Shown: piece after piece, positions 5,818 to 38,254 of the stretch
Layout: each line of letters begins with the position of its first letter
Numbering within the stretch: the stretch's first letter is position 1
Sequence record: KJ190157
Strand: one strand, 5' to 3'
DNA length: 64,000 bases
From: Escherichia phage vB_EcoS_FFH_1
The notes under the pieces: generated by a model
Seen by the model: only the letters and a program-made list of their open reading frames with translations
The model's database searches: none
Told to the model about the DNA's origin: nothing
Made by a program: the position numbers and the translations under genes

Positions 5818-6007
5818 CTAATTGTTTCCTTATGTTATTAATTTAATCTCTATTATATTATATCAAAATAGTTAGCAAGCGAGCTAATGAGTTTTTCAGG
5901 ATTAGTTAGCAGACTCATAATCACGGTAAAATCCTATTAGCCAACTAACTATATTTTACGATATAATAACTTTATAAATTAGTTAGTGAGAAAAACTATC
6001 ATTTAAG

Positions 6008-6114
6008 TTATCCACAGACTTAATCACAGCACAAAATAATTTGACATGATAGGCGGCGATATAAGGACTTTTACACAGACTTATCCACATGTTATCCTAC
6101 TGTATAAATATACA
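6008..6114. repeat. left arm of large imperfect inverted repeat with two DnaA boxes
   Basis: TTATCCACA at 6008-6016 and 6081-6089; palindrome ACTGTATAAATATACAG at 6098-6114; reverse complement recurs at 8951-9058. Confidence 0.8.
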
Positions 6115-8498: not shown

Positions 8499-8698
8499 GC
8501 AATAAAATTGTTGTAACCAAAATCAGTACAATGGTTGATGTTTTTTACGTGCCCGATACGCCGGAAAACCGGCAAGCGGTCGAGCGTGGCGAGTATGATA
8601 AAGTGATTTATGATCACGATGGTTATTATCAGCATTTGGTCGATTCCTATGGGGAAGAGGAAAAGATCACGCATCAATTACCGGAGGATGGTTTATGA
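8495..8698 (+). CDS. hypothetical protein
   Basis: 67 aa, ATGA overlap with upstream gene. Confidence 0.5.
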   Translation: MSNKIVVTKISTMVDVFYVPDTPENRQAVERGEYDKVIYDHDGYYQHLVDSYGEEEKITHQLPEDGL

Positions 8699-8808
8699 AA
8701 CGATGGTTTAATCACTGGTACAAGCGGTTTTTAGTACGCCGTCGCAAATCTAGACATCAAGATGAGTGGCGGGAGTGGGCAAAGCGTAACGGTTGCCCGC
8801 TACTCTGA
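8695..8808 (+). CDS. small basic peptide
   Basis: 37 aa Trp/Arg-rich, ATGA overlap, terminator follows. Confidence 0.3.
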   Translation: MKRWFNHWYKRFLVRRRKSRHQDEWREWAKRNGCPLL

Positions 8809-8812
8809 AAAC

Positions 8813-8837
8813 GACGGGGATTAGCTCCCCGTTTTTC
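8813..8837 (+). terminator. rho-independent terminator
   Basis: ACGGGGA...TCCCCGT followed by TTTTT. Confidence 0.7.
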
Positions 8838-8950
8838 CATGCCTCCAGTTAAATACCCCCTTGTTTAGTATCCCCACCAAAATTAAACGCGTTAGAATGC
8901 GATCTAGGACGTTTTAGCGGTATATTAGAATTATTCACTACATAGGAATA

Positions 8951-9058
8951 CTGTATATTTATACAGTAGGATAAGCTGTGGATAAGTCTGTTAATAACGC
9001 CTCAAAATGGCTAGGATTCTGTCAAGTCAAATCGTGCTGTTAATAAGTCTGTGGATAA
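8951..9058. repeat. right arm of large imperfect inverted repeat with two DnaA boxes
   Basis: TGTGGATAA at 8978-8986 and 9050-9058; palindrome ACTGTATATTTATACAGT at 8951-8968. Confidence 0.8.
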
Positions 9059-9084
9059 CTTAAATAATAGTGTTTCTCACTTCC

Positions 9085-9240
9085 ATTCTTAAATGCAAAT
9101 CATTATCATTCGCATTTCACTTTCTAAATGAGAATCATTTCACTTCTTGAATAGTTCTCATTTCACTTTTTAAATGCGAATTATTATCATTCTCATTTCG
9201 CTTTTTAAATGAGAATAATTATCATTCGCATTCGCATTCA
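9085..9240. repeat. degenerate direct repeats (TTAAATG[A/C]GAAT...ATCATTC units)
   Basis: about five 25-35 bp units with internal dyad symmetry, read directly. Confidence 0.6.
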
Positions 9241-9242
9241 GG

Positions 9243-9275
9243 CGAGCGGGGGCAATTGCCCCCCGCGCTTTTGTG
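9243..9275 (+). terminator. hairpin/terminator
   Basis: GCGGGGGCAATTGCCCCCCGC followed by TTTTG. Confidence 0.55.
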
Positions 9276-9871
9276 CAAATCCGACATTGCTCCACGGGTG
9301 TTACGTGCGGGCATGTATGTGCGAATCCGACAATTTTTGGTAGTGTGCAAATCCGACCCGAAAAATTTTATAGTGTGCAAATCCGACAATGAATTTTCCC
9401 AAAAACTCCAGCAATCCGATGCTGCGCATCAATCCTGTGGAATTAGCTAGAATATGTGCAAATCCGACATGGGTTTATTTGTGCGAATCCGACAAGATTT
9501 TTGTGACTTTGATTGGAGGGCGTGTGATTGTAGGGGTTTGAGGAGAAGATGAGAGAGTGAGAGAAATTTGAGGGAACTGTGAGAGGGGCGCAGGATTGGT
9601 GCGGAGCACCTGATTTGCGGGGATTTTGGAGGAGATGTGAGATAACTTGGGTTAATTTGAGATAGGTGCAGAAAAAGCGAAATTTTATTAGCAAAATGGG
9701 GCAAAATAGCTTGACAAGTGAAAATTTCTGTGGCTCTAAAAACTCAGGCAATCATGGGCCTTCGGCCCGAAATAATGCTACTATTTTCAGGAGAGTAAGA
9801 GTTCCTAAAAACTTAGGCGTTTGTGCAAATCCGACCATAAATTTCTAGAAATGCAGTGTGCAAATCCGACA
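9272..9871. repeat. eight dispersed direct copies of TGTGC(A/G)AATCCGACA
   Basis: copies at 9272, 9318, 9346, 9374, 9455, 9480, 9822, 9857, all in the same orientation. Confidence 0.85.
9505..9665. repeat. polypurine (GA-rich) tract with strong strand asymmetry
   Basis: about 160 bp almost entirely G/A/T on the plus strand with GAG(A)G reiterations. Confidence 0.6.
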
Positions 9872-10334
9872 GTAATTTCTGGAAATGTGTTTTCAAAAAA
9901 TGTCTTCTAGAAATAACCGCCCTCCCTATAACCGCCCTGTATTAACCGCCTATTGCTGGAGTTTCTAGGAACAATGAAAACCGCCTGAGTTGACTGGAGA
10001 AACAGATTTAAAGTTTAATGTAAACTCTAGAGTTAGTGCTCAACTATTCCTAGAAACTTAGGAGTCTACTAGAAAGTGTTGTGCCATCCTAGCAGATGAG
10101 CGGCAACAGGTGTATCATCTTGAACACAGATATTGCCTTTAAATATTTTTATGTATTTTAAAAGTAAATAGTCCCCCATTTCATGTGAGATTTCCTCGTG
10201 GGGCGCGTGAGTATTACGGAAGACTTAGTAATTAGATCTATACTCGTGCTGTCGCAACGTATAGACGTAATACTAAGTGTAATAATCATCGCCCCTAGAG
10301 TTCAAAACAAGAGTTGTTTTTAATCTATGAGATT

Positions 10335-10364
10335 ATTATAACATGTGCCGCAATGAGTTGTCAA
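10335..10364 (-). promoter_or_regulatory. sigma70 promoter pointing into the repeat region
   Basis: minus strand TTGACA, 18 bp, TATAAT; no ORF immediately downstream. Confidence 0.5.
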
Positions 10365-10381
10365 GAAGATTTTGTTAACGT

Positions 10382-10738
10382 TTATACATCTCCTTCGAGA
10401 TTGGTATTGGGATCGTAAATTTTCTTGGCTCCTGTATTTAATAGGAATCGTTCTGCAAGTTGTGGGTGAATATCAAAGAACTCTGTGCATCCTTCGAATC
10501 CCTTTAAATTACAGCGGTATTTCTTAAAGTAGATATGTGCAGCGGCTTCTAGATCTCTAGGATTATGGGTTTCATAGATCCCATACACGTATAAATCGTC
10601 AAAACCACGATAAACTATCTTATCTAAGTTTAGTGTTTGAATCCTATTATGTGGATTCATACTAATACCGATCTTTGTTCTCTTAGGGATCTTCGTCAGA
10701 TCCCTATTTGCAAGAATATATACTTTATATAGTGACAT
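10382..10738 (-). CDS. hypothetical protein (possible GIY-YIG/T5orf172-like)
   Basis: 118 aa; weak resemblance only. Confidence 0.45.
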   Translation of the reverse strand: MSLYKVYILANRDLTKIPKRTKIGISMNPHNRIQTLNLDKIVYRGFDDLYVYGIYETHNPRDLEAAAHIYFKKYRCNLKGFEGCTEFFDIHPQLAERFLLNTGAKKIYDPNTNLEGDV

Positions 10739-11456
10739 TCTTTCTAGCCTTTAGATAGATTCCTTTAGATGCTAGATAAATATACGTAGCAAGGAATGAA
10801 GATGTAGATCCTGTTTCCTCAAGAGTAATAGATCCTTTTGCATAACGCTTAGTTCTAGGAGCCTGGTTAAGCACAAGTGCAGTGAGACTACCTAATCCTA
10901 GCGCATCCATTAAACGTTTGAAGGAGTCCTTTTCATCGTGGATAGCATATAGAATGTAATCTTCCGCTGTAGTTAGTTCTATATCACGATGATGTGCCAC
11001 TGCAATCCGTGCTACTACAGCTCCAATCGTTCTATAAATATCTTCAAACGTAATGCTAGTTTCAAAAGCTAATGCTGGAAGATGATCGAACTTACATTTC
11101 TTAGGTGGGATAAGAAGTTGCTCAGGATACGCTTCTAACGCTTCTCTAGCGGATGTTTCTCTATACGCTGGGAGAGGTTCATCAATAATAACATGAATAT
11201 AGTTTCCCATGTGACCTTTAGCAGTTGGATCTAAAGACTTGAGAAGTTTATTCATATCAACATAAGAGTAAGCAAGGTCAGCTTTTGCAGCTTTGTTATC
11301 GTACTTAATCTTACCACCTTCCCACCTAGCTGGGAACATCTCACAAACAAACATTACTGCATGTTTCTCTTGAGCAGTTAGATCAGAGAAACAGCGATGA
11401 TCAGCCCCCTTAGCGAGGGCTAGAATATTCTTAAATTTTACTGCCAAATCTTTCAT
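10725..11456 (-). CDS. hypothetical protein
   Basis: 243 aa ORF. Confidence 0.55.
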   Translation of the reverse strand: MKDLAVKFKNILALAKGADHRCFSDLTAQEKHAVMFVCEMFPARWEGGKIKYDNKAAKADLAYSYVDMNKLLKSLDPTAKGHMGNYIHVIIDEPLPAYRETSAREALEAYPEQLLIPPKKCKFDHLPALAFETSITFEDIYRTIGAVVARIAVAHHRDIELTTAEDYILYAIHDEKDSFKRLMDALGLGSLTALVLNQAPRTKRYAKGSITLEETGSTSSFLATYIYLASKGIYLKARKNVTI

Positions 11457-12076
11457 TAATTACCCCTCTTATCTTTATTAAGGGCAGCTCCCAACGCCTC
11501 CATAATAACATCTTCTAAACTTCCATGTTTACTAGGATTATTAAAATGAATAGTACAAACAGAACTCCTAGAAACTCCAGCATCCACAGGTGCTACGCTT
11601 CGCATATCAGATTCAAAAGCTTCTTGGGTATGTTTCAACTGTACAGAAGGGCCGTAATCTTCCCCAAACTTATATGACTTCGTACTACTTACCACACCCC
11701 CACAAGGAACATTGTGCATATCCGACATTAATCTTTTATCGGAGTTATTCAGCATTGAGATTGTCCCTGACTGCCACGGATCTCTAATAGTCACTGGAGT
11801 ACTAGGACGGTTCACCTCGGTCTTCACGAGTTTGTACCCCGCATCGATCAGTGCATTAATCAGGTTATCCGCCGGGATGCGAGCCGTACCAAAAATCTTA
11901 CGAGCATCTTCGAGCTTACCTTCAAGATCTTTACATGCTTTAATACTAGTGTGTGCAAAGGTTAGCTTCATAGATTTGAATTGTACAGTAGCAGTTAAAT
12001 CTTTAAAGCTATAATCCCATGTATTCAGTTCATGATCTGGTACTACTTGAATAGATTGTTGTGCATATAAAGTCAT
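11456..12076 (-). CDS. hypothetical protein
   Basis: 206 aa ORF, ATG/stop abutting neighbour. Confidence 0.55.
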   Translation of the reverse strand: MTLYAQQSIQVVPDHELNTWDYSFKDLTATVQFKSMKLTFAHTSIKACKDLEGKLEDARKIFGTARIPADNLINALIDAGYKLVKTEVNRPSTPVTIRDPWQSGTISMLNNSDKRLMSDMHNVPCGGVVSSTKSYKFGEDYGPSVQLKHTQEAFESDMRSVAPVDAGVSRSSVCTIHFNNPSKHGSLEDVIMEALGAALNKDKRGN

Positions 12077-22132: not shown

Positions 22133-22885
22133 TTATCCAACTAGTGGTTCTAGCTCTAAGTCACAGAAGTTATAAACTTCTAGTTTAAGGTTATTGATAC
22201 CATCGAATTTATTAACTAATTCGTGAGTAATATATTTTGCAGGAATACCACTTTCAGATGGATGATCTGATTTAATAGTGAACTTCTGCTCAGCGGGTAC
22301 TACATTTACTATCAAAGAATCCATATCTAAATGGTTTGTTTCTCTGAGTAACTCTCCTTCATTGGGGAATCTAACATCTGTTATTATGGCGACATCTGGG
22401 TCGTCTTTAGCGATGGATTGCTCCAGAATTATGAGCCAAATGCGTTCATGCACCAGCTGCCTTCCTAGCTCTGTCCCTACGAGCTGTAACATTTTTCTCG
22501 GAGAAATAAATAAACTATAAAGTCCGTCTTCTTTATTCTCTGAGATAAGTTGTTGAGGATTAAGATATTTTTCCTCAAAAATAGGCCAAACGTACGAGAA
22601 GTCTTCAAACTTATCGATACCGTACTTAAACCACACATCTCTGGCTCGCTCCAGTTGAGATTGTGTGACCGTAAACCATTGGTCAATCTCTTTTCCCCTG
22701 CGCTCTCCTAAAAACTCTGGAGTTACACCGAGGATTACGGATGCAAGTTCATAAACGGGCTTAGCAAAACTATAACGACGGGATAAACACGTTGGATACG
22801 TGTCATTACACCAATCGATAATTAATTTTGCAACGGTATCTTTTCCCGAACCAGCTTCACCATGTAAACCGACTAATACTGACAT
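22133..22885 (-). CDS. dnk: deoxynucleoside monophosphate kinase
   Basis: 250 aa; P-loop GEAGSGKDT. Confidence 0.7.
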   Translation of the reverse strand: MSVLVGLHGEAGSGKDTVAKLIIDWCNDTYPTCLSRRYSFAKPVYELASVILGVTPEFLGERRGKEIDQWFTVTQSQLERARDVWFKYGIDKFEDFSYVWPIFEEKYLNPQQLISENKEDGLYSLFISPRKMLQLVGTELGRQLVHERIWLIILEQSIAKDDPDVAIITDVRFPNEGELLRETNHLDMDSLIVNVVPAEQKFTIKSDHPSESGIPAKYITHELVNKFDGINNLKLEVYNFCDLELEPLVG

Positions 22886-38230: not shown

Positions 38231-38254
38231 TACTTCAGATGTTACATGCGGATA

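What the first reader, a model, noticed from the sequence alone, without database searches (positions are those of the whole stretch)
9061..9871. Dense non-coding repeat block: palindromic direct repeats, eight copies of TGTGCAAATCCGACA and a 160-bp polypurine tract
About 1.3 kb (9060-10380) lacks convincing ORFs. It holds about five degenerate 25-35 bp units (9085-9240), a GC hairpin (9243-9275), eight same-orientation copies of a 15-bp motif at irregular spacing (25-342 bp) and a strongly strand-asymmetric GA-rich tract (9505-9665). A same-orientation array of a fixed 15-mer is the signature of a cooperative protein-binding site cluster, and a candidate for the DNA-transfer pause or a terminal-repeat boundary function.
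Basis: seen in the sequence. Interest (0 to 1): 0.6.

Follow-up and report, generated by a model that had tools for sequence, protein, structure and literature searches.

The report
T5-type injection-stop / terminal-repeat junction block
This is the already-described non-coding "injection stop signal" region at the right edge of the long terminal repeat of a T5-like phage. The repeated 15-mer is T5's known DRD repeat, whose function is still unproven.

Summary
There are eight same-strand copies of TGTGCAAATCCGACA (5 exact, 3 with one mismatch), AT-rich palindromic repeats, a GC hairpin and a strongly strand-asymmetric tract. None of the ORFs in the block is conserved.

The window is a Tequintavirus. 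The block is homologous to T5's annotated "injection stop signal (iss)", called Repeat Region 3 in the literature. The 15-mers are most probably T5's "DRD" repeats and the 66-nt units its "DRE" repeats.

New detail from this work:
- The terminal repeat ends at window 9736|9737, between 15-mer copies 6 and 7.
- The GC hairpin carries T5's 7.9% nick site (9269|9268, minus strand).
- The "polypurine" tract is really a C-depleted, G-rich tract (C 6.8%, purine 67%).
- The 15-mer core GTGCAAATCCGA and the whole order of parts recur in five genera, down to a Vibrio phage whose A1 protein is only 32% identical. Copies always lie on both sides of the repeat end.

Function remains unproven in the literature up to 2026. 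I favour a protein-binding array that marks the repeat/unique junction and acts in the pause or restart of DNA transfer. Recognition by the end-forming (packaging) machinery is a close rival. Verdict: already known, low to moderate interest.

The parts
8815..8836 (+). Intrinsic terminator ending the rightward pre-early operon
   Evidence: Homologous to the annotated T5 terminator 9275-9296. Follows the last ORF, 8695-8808.
8949..8968 (.). LexA-type SOS-box palindrome TACTGTATATTTATACAGTA (CTGT-N8-ACAG)
   Evidence: 19 of 20 match to the consensus and the only such match in 64 kb. Conserved in T5, Bf23, IME260, Slocum, My1 and Javier.
8952..9081 (.). 130-nt arm (IRD'-spacer-IRC') with paired DnaA boxes at 8977-8985 and 9050-9058, plus near-boxes at 8989-8997 and 9038-9046. 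Its inverted partner lies at 5985-6114.
   Evidence: Inverted repeat, 79% complementary. DnaA boxes. Described for T5 by Davison.
9074..9240 (.). AT-rich, G-poor palindromic direct repeats (T5 'DRE', 66-nt units)
   Evidence: z = -5.2. Most G-depleted stretch of the window.
9246..9269 (.). GC hairpin overlapping the nick consensus A|GCGCGGG on the minus strand (nick at 9269|9268). Homologue of T5's major 7.9% nick.
   Evidence: Consensus R/GCGCRGG taken from PMC3517423.
9299..9310 (-). CCGCACGTAACA, an auxiliary element 30 nt upstream of the nick, in the spacer between 15-mer copies 1 and 2
   Evidence: The only two exact matches in the window both lie 29-30 nt upstream of nick sites.
9272..9494 (+). 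15-mer copies 1-6 (TGTGCRAATCCGACM), inside the terminal repeat
   Evidence: Logo: positions 1-14 carry 1.7-1.9 bits apart from position 6 (A/G, 1.06), against at most 0.8 bits in the flanks.
9505..9665 (+). C-depleted, G-rich tract. Contains the nick consensus GGCGCAGG on the un-nicked strand at 9587-9594.
   Evidence: For leftward RNA the C/G ratio is 15.0, against 5.6 for the best site elsewhere. The composition, not the sequence, is conserved in IME260, My1, Slocum and Javier.
9711..9736 (+). TTGACA...CTGTGGCTC box ending at the right end of the terminal repeat (9736|9737)
   Evidence: The annotated repeat ends of T5, Bf23 and Elw, and eight assemblies that stop at this base, agree. In IME260 the identity between the left and right repeat copies ends at the same place.
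9756..9768 (.). Conserved small hairpin GGGCC-TTC-GGCCC just outside the repeat
   Evidence: Function unknown.
9822..9871 (+). 15-mer copies 7 and 8, 86-135 bp outside the terminal repeat
   Evidence: Absent from right-repeat loci, which stop 256-259 bp after the start of copy 6.
9914..9986 (+). Four copies of WAACCGCCY
   Evidence: The only four matches in the window. The same heptamer lies 35 bp inside the T5, Bf23 and MM-1 left ends.
10335..10364 (-). Strong leftward sigma-70-type promoter (TTGACA-18-TATAAT preceded by TG) aimed into the block
   Evidence: 12 of 12 hexamer match. The hexamers are kept while the spacers differ in 17 of 27 loci, including IME260.
11713..11727 (+). Outlying 15-mer copy TGTGCATATCCGACA inside the minus-strand gene 11456-12076
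   Evidence: Conserved in 19 homologues, but not separable from coding constraint.

Best explanation
The block is the T5-family 'injection stop signal / Repeat Region 3'. It is a composite cis-acting DNA element lying between the convergent pre-early and early transcription units, at the junction of the left terminal repeat and the unique DNA.

The 15-mers are iterons (repeated binding sites; T5's 'DRD' repeats) for a sequence-specific protein restricted to this phage family. They are arranged on both sides of the fixed repeat end.

Proposed mechanism, which is inferred. When the first ~8% of the genome has entered the cell, the sites for host proteins (LexA box, DnaA boxes) and the palindromes are already inside. 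The iterons then sit at the point of entry. There they are loaded by a pre-early DNA-binding protein, with A2 or the A1-A2 complex as the prime candidate. That complex holds the DNA and then restarts its transfer.

Shown here: identity with the T5 iss region, the anatomy, the position of the repeat end and of the nick, non-coding status, confinement of the motif, and family-wide conservation.

Inferred: that the iterons bind protein, which protein it is, and any role in the pause or restart.
For: - Homology to the T5 feature 'injection stop signal (iss)' and to the left terminal repeat.
- Every element that Davison lists is present: the IRD'-spacer-IRC' arm with DnaA boxes, the 66-nt DRE units, and a DRD series that numbers nine in T5.
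- The block 8840-9940 is 85-98% conserved, against 33-70% for the flanking genes.
- The iteron logo is sharply bounded. The cores are 95.5% conserved, against 86% and 74% for the spacers.
- The motif is confined to this locus. Paired cores occur in T5-sized contigs (96-123 kb), apart from one 11.8-kb metagenome fragment that I did not examine.
- The same core and the same order of parts occur in IME260, My1, Slocum and Vibrio phage Javier.
- A2 is 42% identical between the window and Javier, with conserved basic segments.
- The literature places the nominal 7.9% end of the first-step DNA at the end of DRE2, next to copy 1.
Against: - There is no experimental evidence that anything binds the 15-mers. 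Davison's model assigns them no role, and a 2026 paper still calls the mechanism poorly understood.
- A role in DNA transfer alone does not explain why copies lie on both sides of the repeat end in every genus examined.
- The spacing is irregular and not in helical phase.
- If the DNA is stalled with this segment still inside the tail tube, cytoplasmic proteins could not reach it.
- That DRD equals this 15-mer rests on the matching count and position, not on a printed sequence.
Confidence: 0.4

Rival explanations
1. The iterons, the C-depleted tract and the TTGACA...CTGTGGCTC box form the recognition site for the machinery that makes the genome's right end (terminase, possibly together with the nicking activity). 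The left end is injected first, so the right end should be packaged first. The six inner iterons would then lie 240-460 bp inside the first DNA to be packaged, in the way cosB does in phage lambda, with further copies across the cut as in the P1 pac site.
For: - The repeat end is invariant and lies between the two iteron clusters in Tequintavirus (11 independent ends), IME260, My1, Slocum and Javier, although the copy numbers differ: 6+2, 5+6, 6+3, 4+2 and about 5+2.
- A nick made in virion DNA abuts copy 1 in all of these phages.
- Paired cores occur in T5-sized contigs, apart from one unexamined 11.8-kb fragment.
Against: - No terminase small subunit or binding data are available.
- No iterons occur at the left repeat boundary, and the two cut sites share no motif.
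- The conserved order of parts could reflect shared ancestry rather than a functional link.
- The packaging direction is inferred from the last-in, first-out rule and was not tested.
Confidence: 0.32
2. The iterons are sites for a conserved host protein, or part of a plasmid-like replication origin (DnaA boxes, then an AT-rich region, then iterons).
For: - The neighbouring elements are sites for host proteins (LexA box, DnaA boxes).
- The iteron core is unchanged from Escherichia phages to Vibrio phages, although A1 drops to 32% identity.
- The order of parts resembles an iteron-type origin.
Against: - The spacing is irregular (25-81 bp), not the regular in-phase spacing I recall for plasmid iterons (about 22 bp, from my own knowledge).
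- There is no adjacent rep gene.
- Arrays were seen only in T5-like contigs.
- T5 origins were mapped near the genome centre, according to Davison.
- I could not match the motif to any host-factor consensus I know.
- The scan of bacterial genomes was uninformative.
Confidence: 0.12
3. Much of the block is a transcription buffer. Two rightward intrinsic terminators and a Rho-utilisation (rut-like) site for leftward RNA (the C-depleted tract) keep convergent transcription from crossing the junction. On this view the 15-mers are incidental or regulatory.
For: - Terminators at 8815-8836 and at 9246-9266 followed by TTTT.
- A conserved strong leftward promoter at 10364->10335.
- The leftward RNA across 9665-9505 has a C/G ratio of 15, the most extreme value in 64 kb.
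- The tract's composition, not its sequence, is conserved across genera.
Against: - This does not explain a 14-nt core conserved across the whole family, or its placement on both sides of the repeat end.
- Within Tequintavirus the tract's sequence, not just its composition, is 87% conserved.
Confidence: 0.1
4. The region encodes small proteins, or the repeats are a chance or decaying remnant.
For: - Some database records annotate hypothetical proteins here.
- A 36-aa ORF at 10069-10179 recurs in about 8 relatives.
Against: - The ORFs are broken in most relatives and have no family hits.
- The block is conserved more strongly than the neighbouring genes.
- Motif count versus chance: 0 of 100 shuffles reach it.
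Confidence: 0.02

Closest known systems
Bacteriophage T5 injection stop signal / 'Repeat Region 3' (Heusterspreute et al. 1987; GenBank AY543070 annotation; Davison 2020 preprint, doi 10.1101/866236)
   Same: Same position, at the right end of the left terminal repeat between convergent operons. Same order of parts, same 15-mer, same nick site and same repeat end. Nucleotide identity is about 78-90%.
   Different: The window has 8 iterons in the block, where T5 has 9; the degenerate ninth copy is missing. It has one fewer 23-bp AT-rich unit and a slightly different hairpin stem (G5/C6).
Terminase recognition sites built from repeated binding sites next to the cut (lambda cosB R sites; P1 pac hexamer arrays). 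Cited from my own knowledge.
   Same: Same-orientation short repeats clustered beside, and on both sides of, a fixed DNA end.
   Different: No binding protein has been identified. T5 makes ~10-kb direct terminal repeats rather than cohesive ends or headful packaging. No iterons occur at the other (left) boundary.
Iteron-type plasmid replication origins (pSC101, P1, RK2). Cited from my own knowledge.
   Same: DnaA boxes, then an AT-rich repeat region, then direct iterons in two clusters.
   Different: The spacing is irregular, there is no rep gene, and T5 origins were mapped elsewhere.
T7 concatemer junction (terminal repeat flanked by short-repeat arrays and entered by a promoter). Cited from my own knowledge.
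   Same: Repeat arrays bracket a direct terminal repeat boundary, and a conserved promoter points into the junction.
   Different: The repeat is 160 bp in T7 against ~10 kb here, the polymerase and terminase are unrelated, and there is no sequence similarity.

Membership tests
T5-type iss / Repeat Region 3 | Non-coding block at the right end of the left terminal repeat of a T5-like genome, between the pre-early and early genes | tested here: met
   dmp, A1 and A2 lie upstream. Aligns to T5 9140-10400. Not coding.
T5-type iss / Repeat Region 3 | IRD'-spacer-IRC' arm with paired DnaA boxes 3 bp apart, and an inverted partner ~3 kb upstream | tested here: met
   Arm 8952-9081 against 5985-6114, 79% complementary. 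DnaA boxes at 8977 and 9050, and at 6008, 6069 and 6081.
T5-type iss / Repeat Region 3 | Two 66-bp DRE repeats | tested here: met
   66-nt copies at 9074 and 9155, 85% identical.
T5-type iss / Repeat Region 3 | Series of DRD direct repeats (nine in T5) | tested here: met
   8 copies in the window. T5 itself has 9 copies with up to 2 mismatches in this block. That DRD is this 15-mer is inferred from the count and position.
T5-type iss / Repeat Region 3 | Major 7.9% nick site (R/GCGCRGG on the nicked strand) | tested here: met
   AGCGCGGG on the minus strand at 9262-9269, aligned to T5 9748/9749.
T5-type iss / Repeat Region 3 | Acts in cis to halt DNA transfer at ~8% of the genome | not testable with these tools
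   Needs infection experiments. Still unproven for T5 itself.
Terminase recognition (pac/cos-type) site | Repeated sites adjacent to the sequence-specific end | tested here: met
   The end at 9736|9737 lies between iterons 6 and 7 here, and between the two iteron clusters in four other genera.
Terminase recognition (pac/cos-type) site | Bound by the small terminase subunit and required for packaging | not testable with these tools
   No binding or packaging data could be obtained.
Iteron-type replication origin | Regularly spaced, helically phased iterons with an adjacent initiator gene | tested here: not met
   Spacings are 46, 26, 30, 81 and 25. The neighbouring genes are PHROGs of unknown function or a homing endonuclease.
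Rho-dependent terminator (rut site), for the tract only | C-rich, G-poor RNA of at least ~80 nt downstream of a promoter | tested here: met
   Leftward RNA has C 41.6% and G 6.8%, with a C/G ratio of 15 in 78 nt. Promoter at 10364->10335. Dependence on Rho was not testable.
LexA SOS box | CTGT-N8-ACAG within a 20-bp palindrome | tested here: met
   19 of 20 at 8949-8968. LexA binding was not testable.

The most novel reading that the evidence does not exclude
The 15-mer iterons are not the stop signal. They would instead be the long-sought recognition (pac-like) site that fixes the right end of T5-family genomes. A phage protein would bind the arrays on both sides of the cut and direct both the end cleavage at ...CTGTGGCTC| and the adjacent strand-specific nick. 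The injection pause would then be a separate property of the upstream LexA-box / DnaA-box / palindrome part.
Probability: 0.3. Interest if true: 0.6.

Novelty: already known. Interest (0 to 1): 0.3.

Why it matters
How T5 stops and restarts DNA transfer has been open since the 1960s, and how phages with long direct terminal repeats define their ends is also unknown. This block is where both events happen.

The finding itself rediscovers a described region, so it adds little. Three comparative points sharpen which experiments to do:
- The 12-nt iteron core is invariant from Escherichia phages to Vibrio phages.
- Iterons always lie on both sides of the repeat end.
- A nick signal abuts iteron 1.

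Tried and rejected
- Rfam: only two sub-threshold microRNA matches, taken as chance.
- PHROGs and Pfam on the internal ORFs: nothing.
- Scan of bacterial genomes for the 15-mer, to look for host sites: single hits in unrelated taxa, consistent with the ~1,100 chance matches I calculate for a 15-mer in 596 Gb.
- Shared cut-site motif between the left and right ends: T5 looked suggestive (CWGTGG three bases before each end), but Bf23, MM-1, IME260 and My1 do not keep it.
- Chi sites in the G-rich tract: one perfect Chi in My1, none in the window's tract, and one in the whole window, which is the chance level.
- G-quadruplex: IME260 has canonical G-runs, but the window and T5 do not.
- TTGACA at 9711 as a promoter -35 element: no acceptable -10 element at 16-19 bp.
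- Outlying copy at 11713: its conservation cannot be separated from that of the host gene; 25% of 15-nt windows in the gene are equally conserved.
- Matching the 15-mer to host-factor consensus sequences from memory (IHF, Fis, CRP, PhoB, Xer, MarA, NtrC): no convincing match.
- Davison's 2015 review could not be retrieved.

Full report
**1. Observation**

The sequence features are all present.
- TGTGCAAATCCGACA matches ten times with up to 2 mismatches, against 0.18 expected; 0 of 100 shuffles reach that count.
- Eight copies lie on the + strand at 9272, 9318, 9344, 9374, 9455, 9480, 9822 and 9857. Five are exact and three have one mismatch.
- The AT-rich units are real. Tandem Repeats Finder gives period 35 x 3.8 copies, there are 66-nt direct copies at 9074 and 9155, and the palindrome 9173-9232 folds with z = -5.2.
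- The GC hairpin is at 9246-9266.
- The "polypurine" tract is only 67% purine. Its real property is depletion of C (C 6.8%, G 41.6%), the most extreme in the 64 kb.
- No internal ORF hits a phage protein family. None is intact in more than 5 of 19 relatives, although nucleotide conservation is about 90%.

**2. What it is**

The region matches 455 phage records, almost all T5-like. The genes upstream are dmp, A1 and A2.

The T5 record AY543070 annotates the homologous DNA as "injection stop signal (iss)", inside the left terminal repeat and carrying a major single-chain interruption, or nick.

Davison's preprint describes the same block as "Repeat Region 3". It lists an IRD'-spacer-IRC' arm with DnaA boxes, two 66-bp DRE repeats, nine DRD repeats and DRA copies, conserved in 25 T5-like phages. 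All of these are found here:
- The 130-nt arm and its inverted partner.
- The DnaA boxes.
- The 66-nt units.
- The 15-mer series.

T5 has nine copies of the 15-mer in this block, so I equate the 15-mer with DRD. That is an inference from count and position.

**3. Landmarks mapped onto the window**

- Repeat end. The annotated repeat ends of T5, Bf23 and Elw map to window 9736|9737 (...TTGACAAGTGAAAATTTCTGTGGCTC|TAAAAAC). Eight independent assemblies stop at that same base. Copies 1-6 are therefore inside the repeat and copies 7-8 lie 86-135 bp outside it. One record, Kenya-K18, annotates its repeat end about 100 bp earlier.
- Nick. T5's 7.9% nick maps to 9269|9268 on the minus strand. There the window reads A|GCGCGGG, which fits the published consensus R/GCGCRGG. 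It lies in the right arm of the hairpin, 3 nt before copy 1.
- Other nick sites. The other minus-strand consensus sites, at 22697 and 38204, fit T5's 18.5% and 32.6% nicks.

**4. Conservation**

Across 19 distinct relatives the block 8840-9940 is 85-98% conserved, whereas the flanking genes are 33-70% conserved.

The iteron logo is sharply bounded. Positions 1-14 carry 1.7-1.9 bits apart from position 6 (A/G, 1.06 bits), against at most 0.8 bits in the flanks. The cores are 95.5% conserved, against 86% and 74% for the spacers. This sample was chosen by the presence of the motif, which favours the cores somewhat.

Exact copies in complete T5-like genomes occur only at the two repeat ends. Paired cores occur in T5-sized contigs out of 2.9 million viral contigs, apart from one 11.8-kb metagenome fragment that I did not examine.

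**5. Distant relatives**

The same order of parts recurs in every relative examined:
1. LexA-type palindrome and DnaA boxes
2. AT-rich repeats
3. GCGC nick motif next to iteron 1
4. Iterons
5. C-depleted tract
6. Repeat end
7. More iterons, plus AACCGCC-type repeats in the four enterobacterial-host phages (not seen in Javier)

| Phage | Host / group | Iterons inside + outside the repeat |
|---|---|---|
| IME260 | Klebsiella, Sugarlandvirus | 5 + 6 |
| My1 | Pectobacterium | 6 + 3 |
| Slocum | Serratia | 4 + 2 |
| Javier | Vibrio, Ermolyevavirinae | about 5 + 2 |

In Javier, A1 is only 32% identical and A2 42% identical to the window's proteins. The core GTGCAAATCCGA is nevertheless unchanged in all of these phages.

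**6. Transcription context**

The block lies between convergent units. A perfect leftward sigma-70-type promoter at 10364->10335 points into it. Its hexamers are kept across relatives although the spacer sequences differ.

Leftward RNA across the tract would have a C/G ratio of 15, against 5.6 for the best site elsewhere. That makes the tract a strong rut-like candidate.

**7. Mechanism**

Nothing in the literature up to 2026 assigns a role to the DRD repeats. The stop mechanism is still described as poorly understood.

I favour, at about 0.4, a protein-binding array at the far end of the first-step DNA. It would be loaded by A2 or A1-A2 to hold the DNA and restart transfer.

The close rival, at about 0.3, is recognition by the end-forming (packaging) machinery. 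It explains better why iterons always lie on both sides of the repeat end and why a nick abuts iteron 1.

The two are not exclusive. The readings as a host-factor site or origin, as a transcription buffer only, and as coding DNA are weaker; see the rival explanations.

**8. Verdict**

Interest is low to moderate.

Noticed in passing
window 8949-8968: Near-perfect LexA SOS box (TACTGTATATTTATACAGTA, 19 of 20) directly left of the DnaA boxes. It is conserved from T5 to Vibrio phage Javier, which has two copies. 'LexA' does not occur in the Davison 2020 text I searched.
   Followed up: partly
window 9299-9310 and 38240-38251 (minus strand): CCGCAYGTAACA occurs exactly twice in 64 kb. Both copies lie 29-30 nt upstream of a nick-consensus site on the nicked strand, and a looser version precedes the 22697 site. 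This suggests that the T5 nick signal is bipartite, which would explain why R/GCGCRGG alone is not sufficient.
   Followed up: partly
window 9587-9594 (+): The nick consensus GGCGCAGG sits on the strand that is not nicked, inside the C-depleted tract, and is invariant in T5, Bf23 and Elw. Together with the minus-strand site at 9262-9269 it brackets all six inner iterons.
   Followed up: no
window 10335-10364 (minus strand): Perfect extended -10 sigma-70-type promoter aimed leftward into the non-coding block, with no conserved gene downstream. It is conserved across relatives, including IME260. Its transcript is unknown.
   Followed up: partly
window 9914-9986; T5, Bf23 and MM-1 left ends at +35: WAACCGCCY occurs four times, only here in the window. 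The same heptamer lies 35 bp inside the genome's left end in T5, Bf23 and MM-1, and My1 has ACCGCCCT at a similar position.
   Followed up: partly
window 10069-10179 (minus strand): A 36-aa ORF ending ...GNICVQDDTPVAAHLLGWHNTF recurs in about 8 relatives. It has no ATG-initiated equivalent in T5 and many others, and the underlying DNA (10061-10120) is conserved in all. Whether it is a peptide or a DNA/RNA element is unresolved.
   Followed up: partly
window 10382-10738 (minus strand): A 118-aa homing-endonuclease-like ORF matches only positions 1-102 of a 236-position PHROG profile, so it is probably a truncated remnant. This slot varies among relatives.
   Followed up: no
window 11713-11727: A tenth, one-mismatch iteron lies ~1.9 kb right of the repeat end, inside a conserved gene of unknown function (PHROG 5271). 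It is present in all 19 homologues examined.
   Followed up: partly
L058 (IME260 right end) versus L070: The last 20 nt of the IME260 record's right end differ from the sequence that follows CTGTGGCTC in the left copy. The annotated 10,277-bp repeat therefore overstates the true identity by 20 bp. The real end matches T5's.
   Followed up: yes
L071 (Salmonella phage Kenya-K18): This record annotates its direct terminal repeat as ending about 100 bp earlier (equivalent to window ~9630, inside the G-rich tract) than in T5, Bf23, Elw and eight other assemblies. It could be a method difference or a real variant.
   Followed up: no
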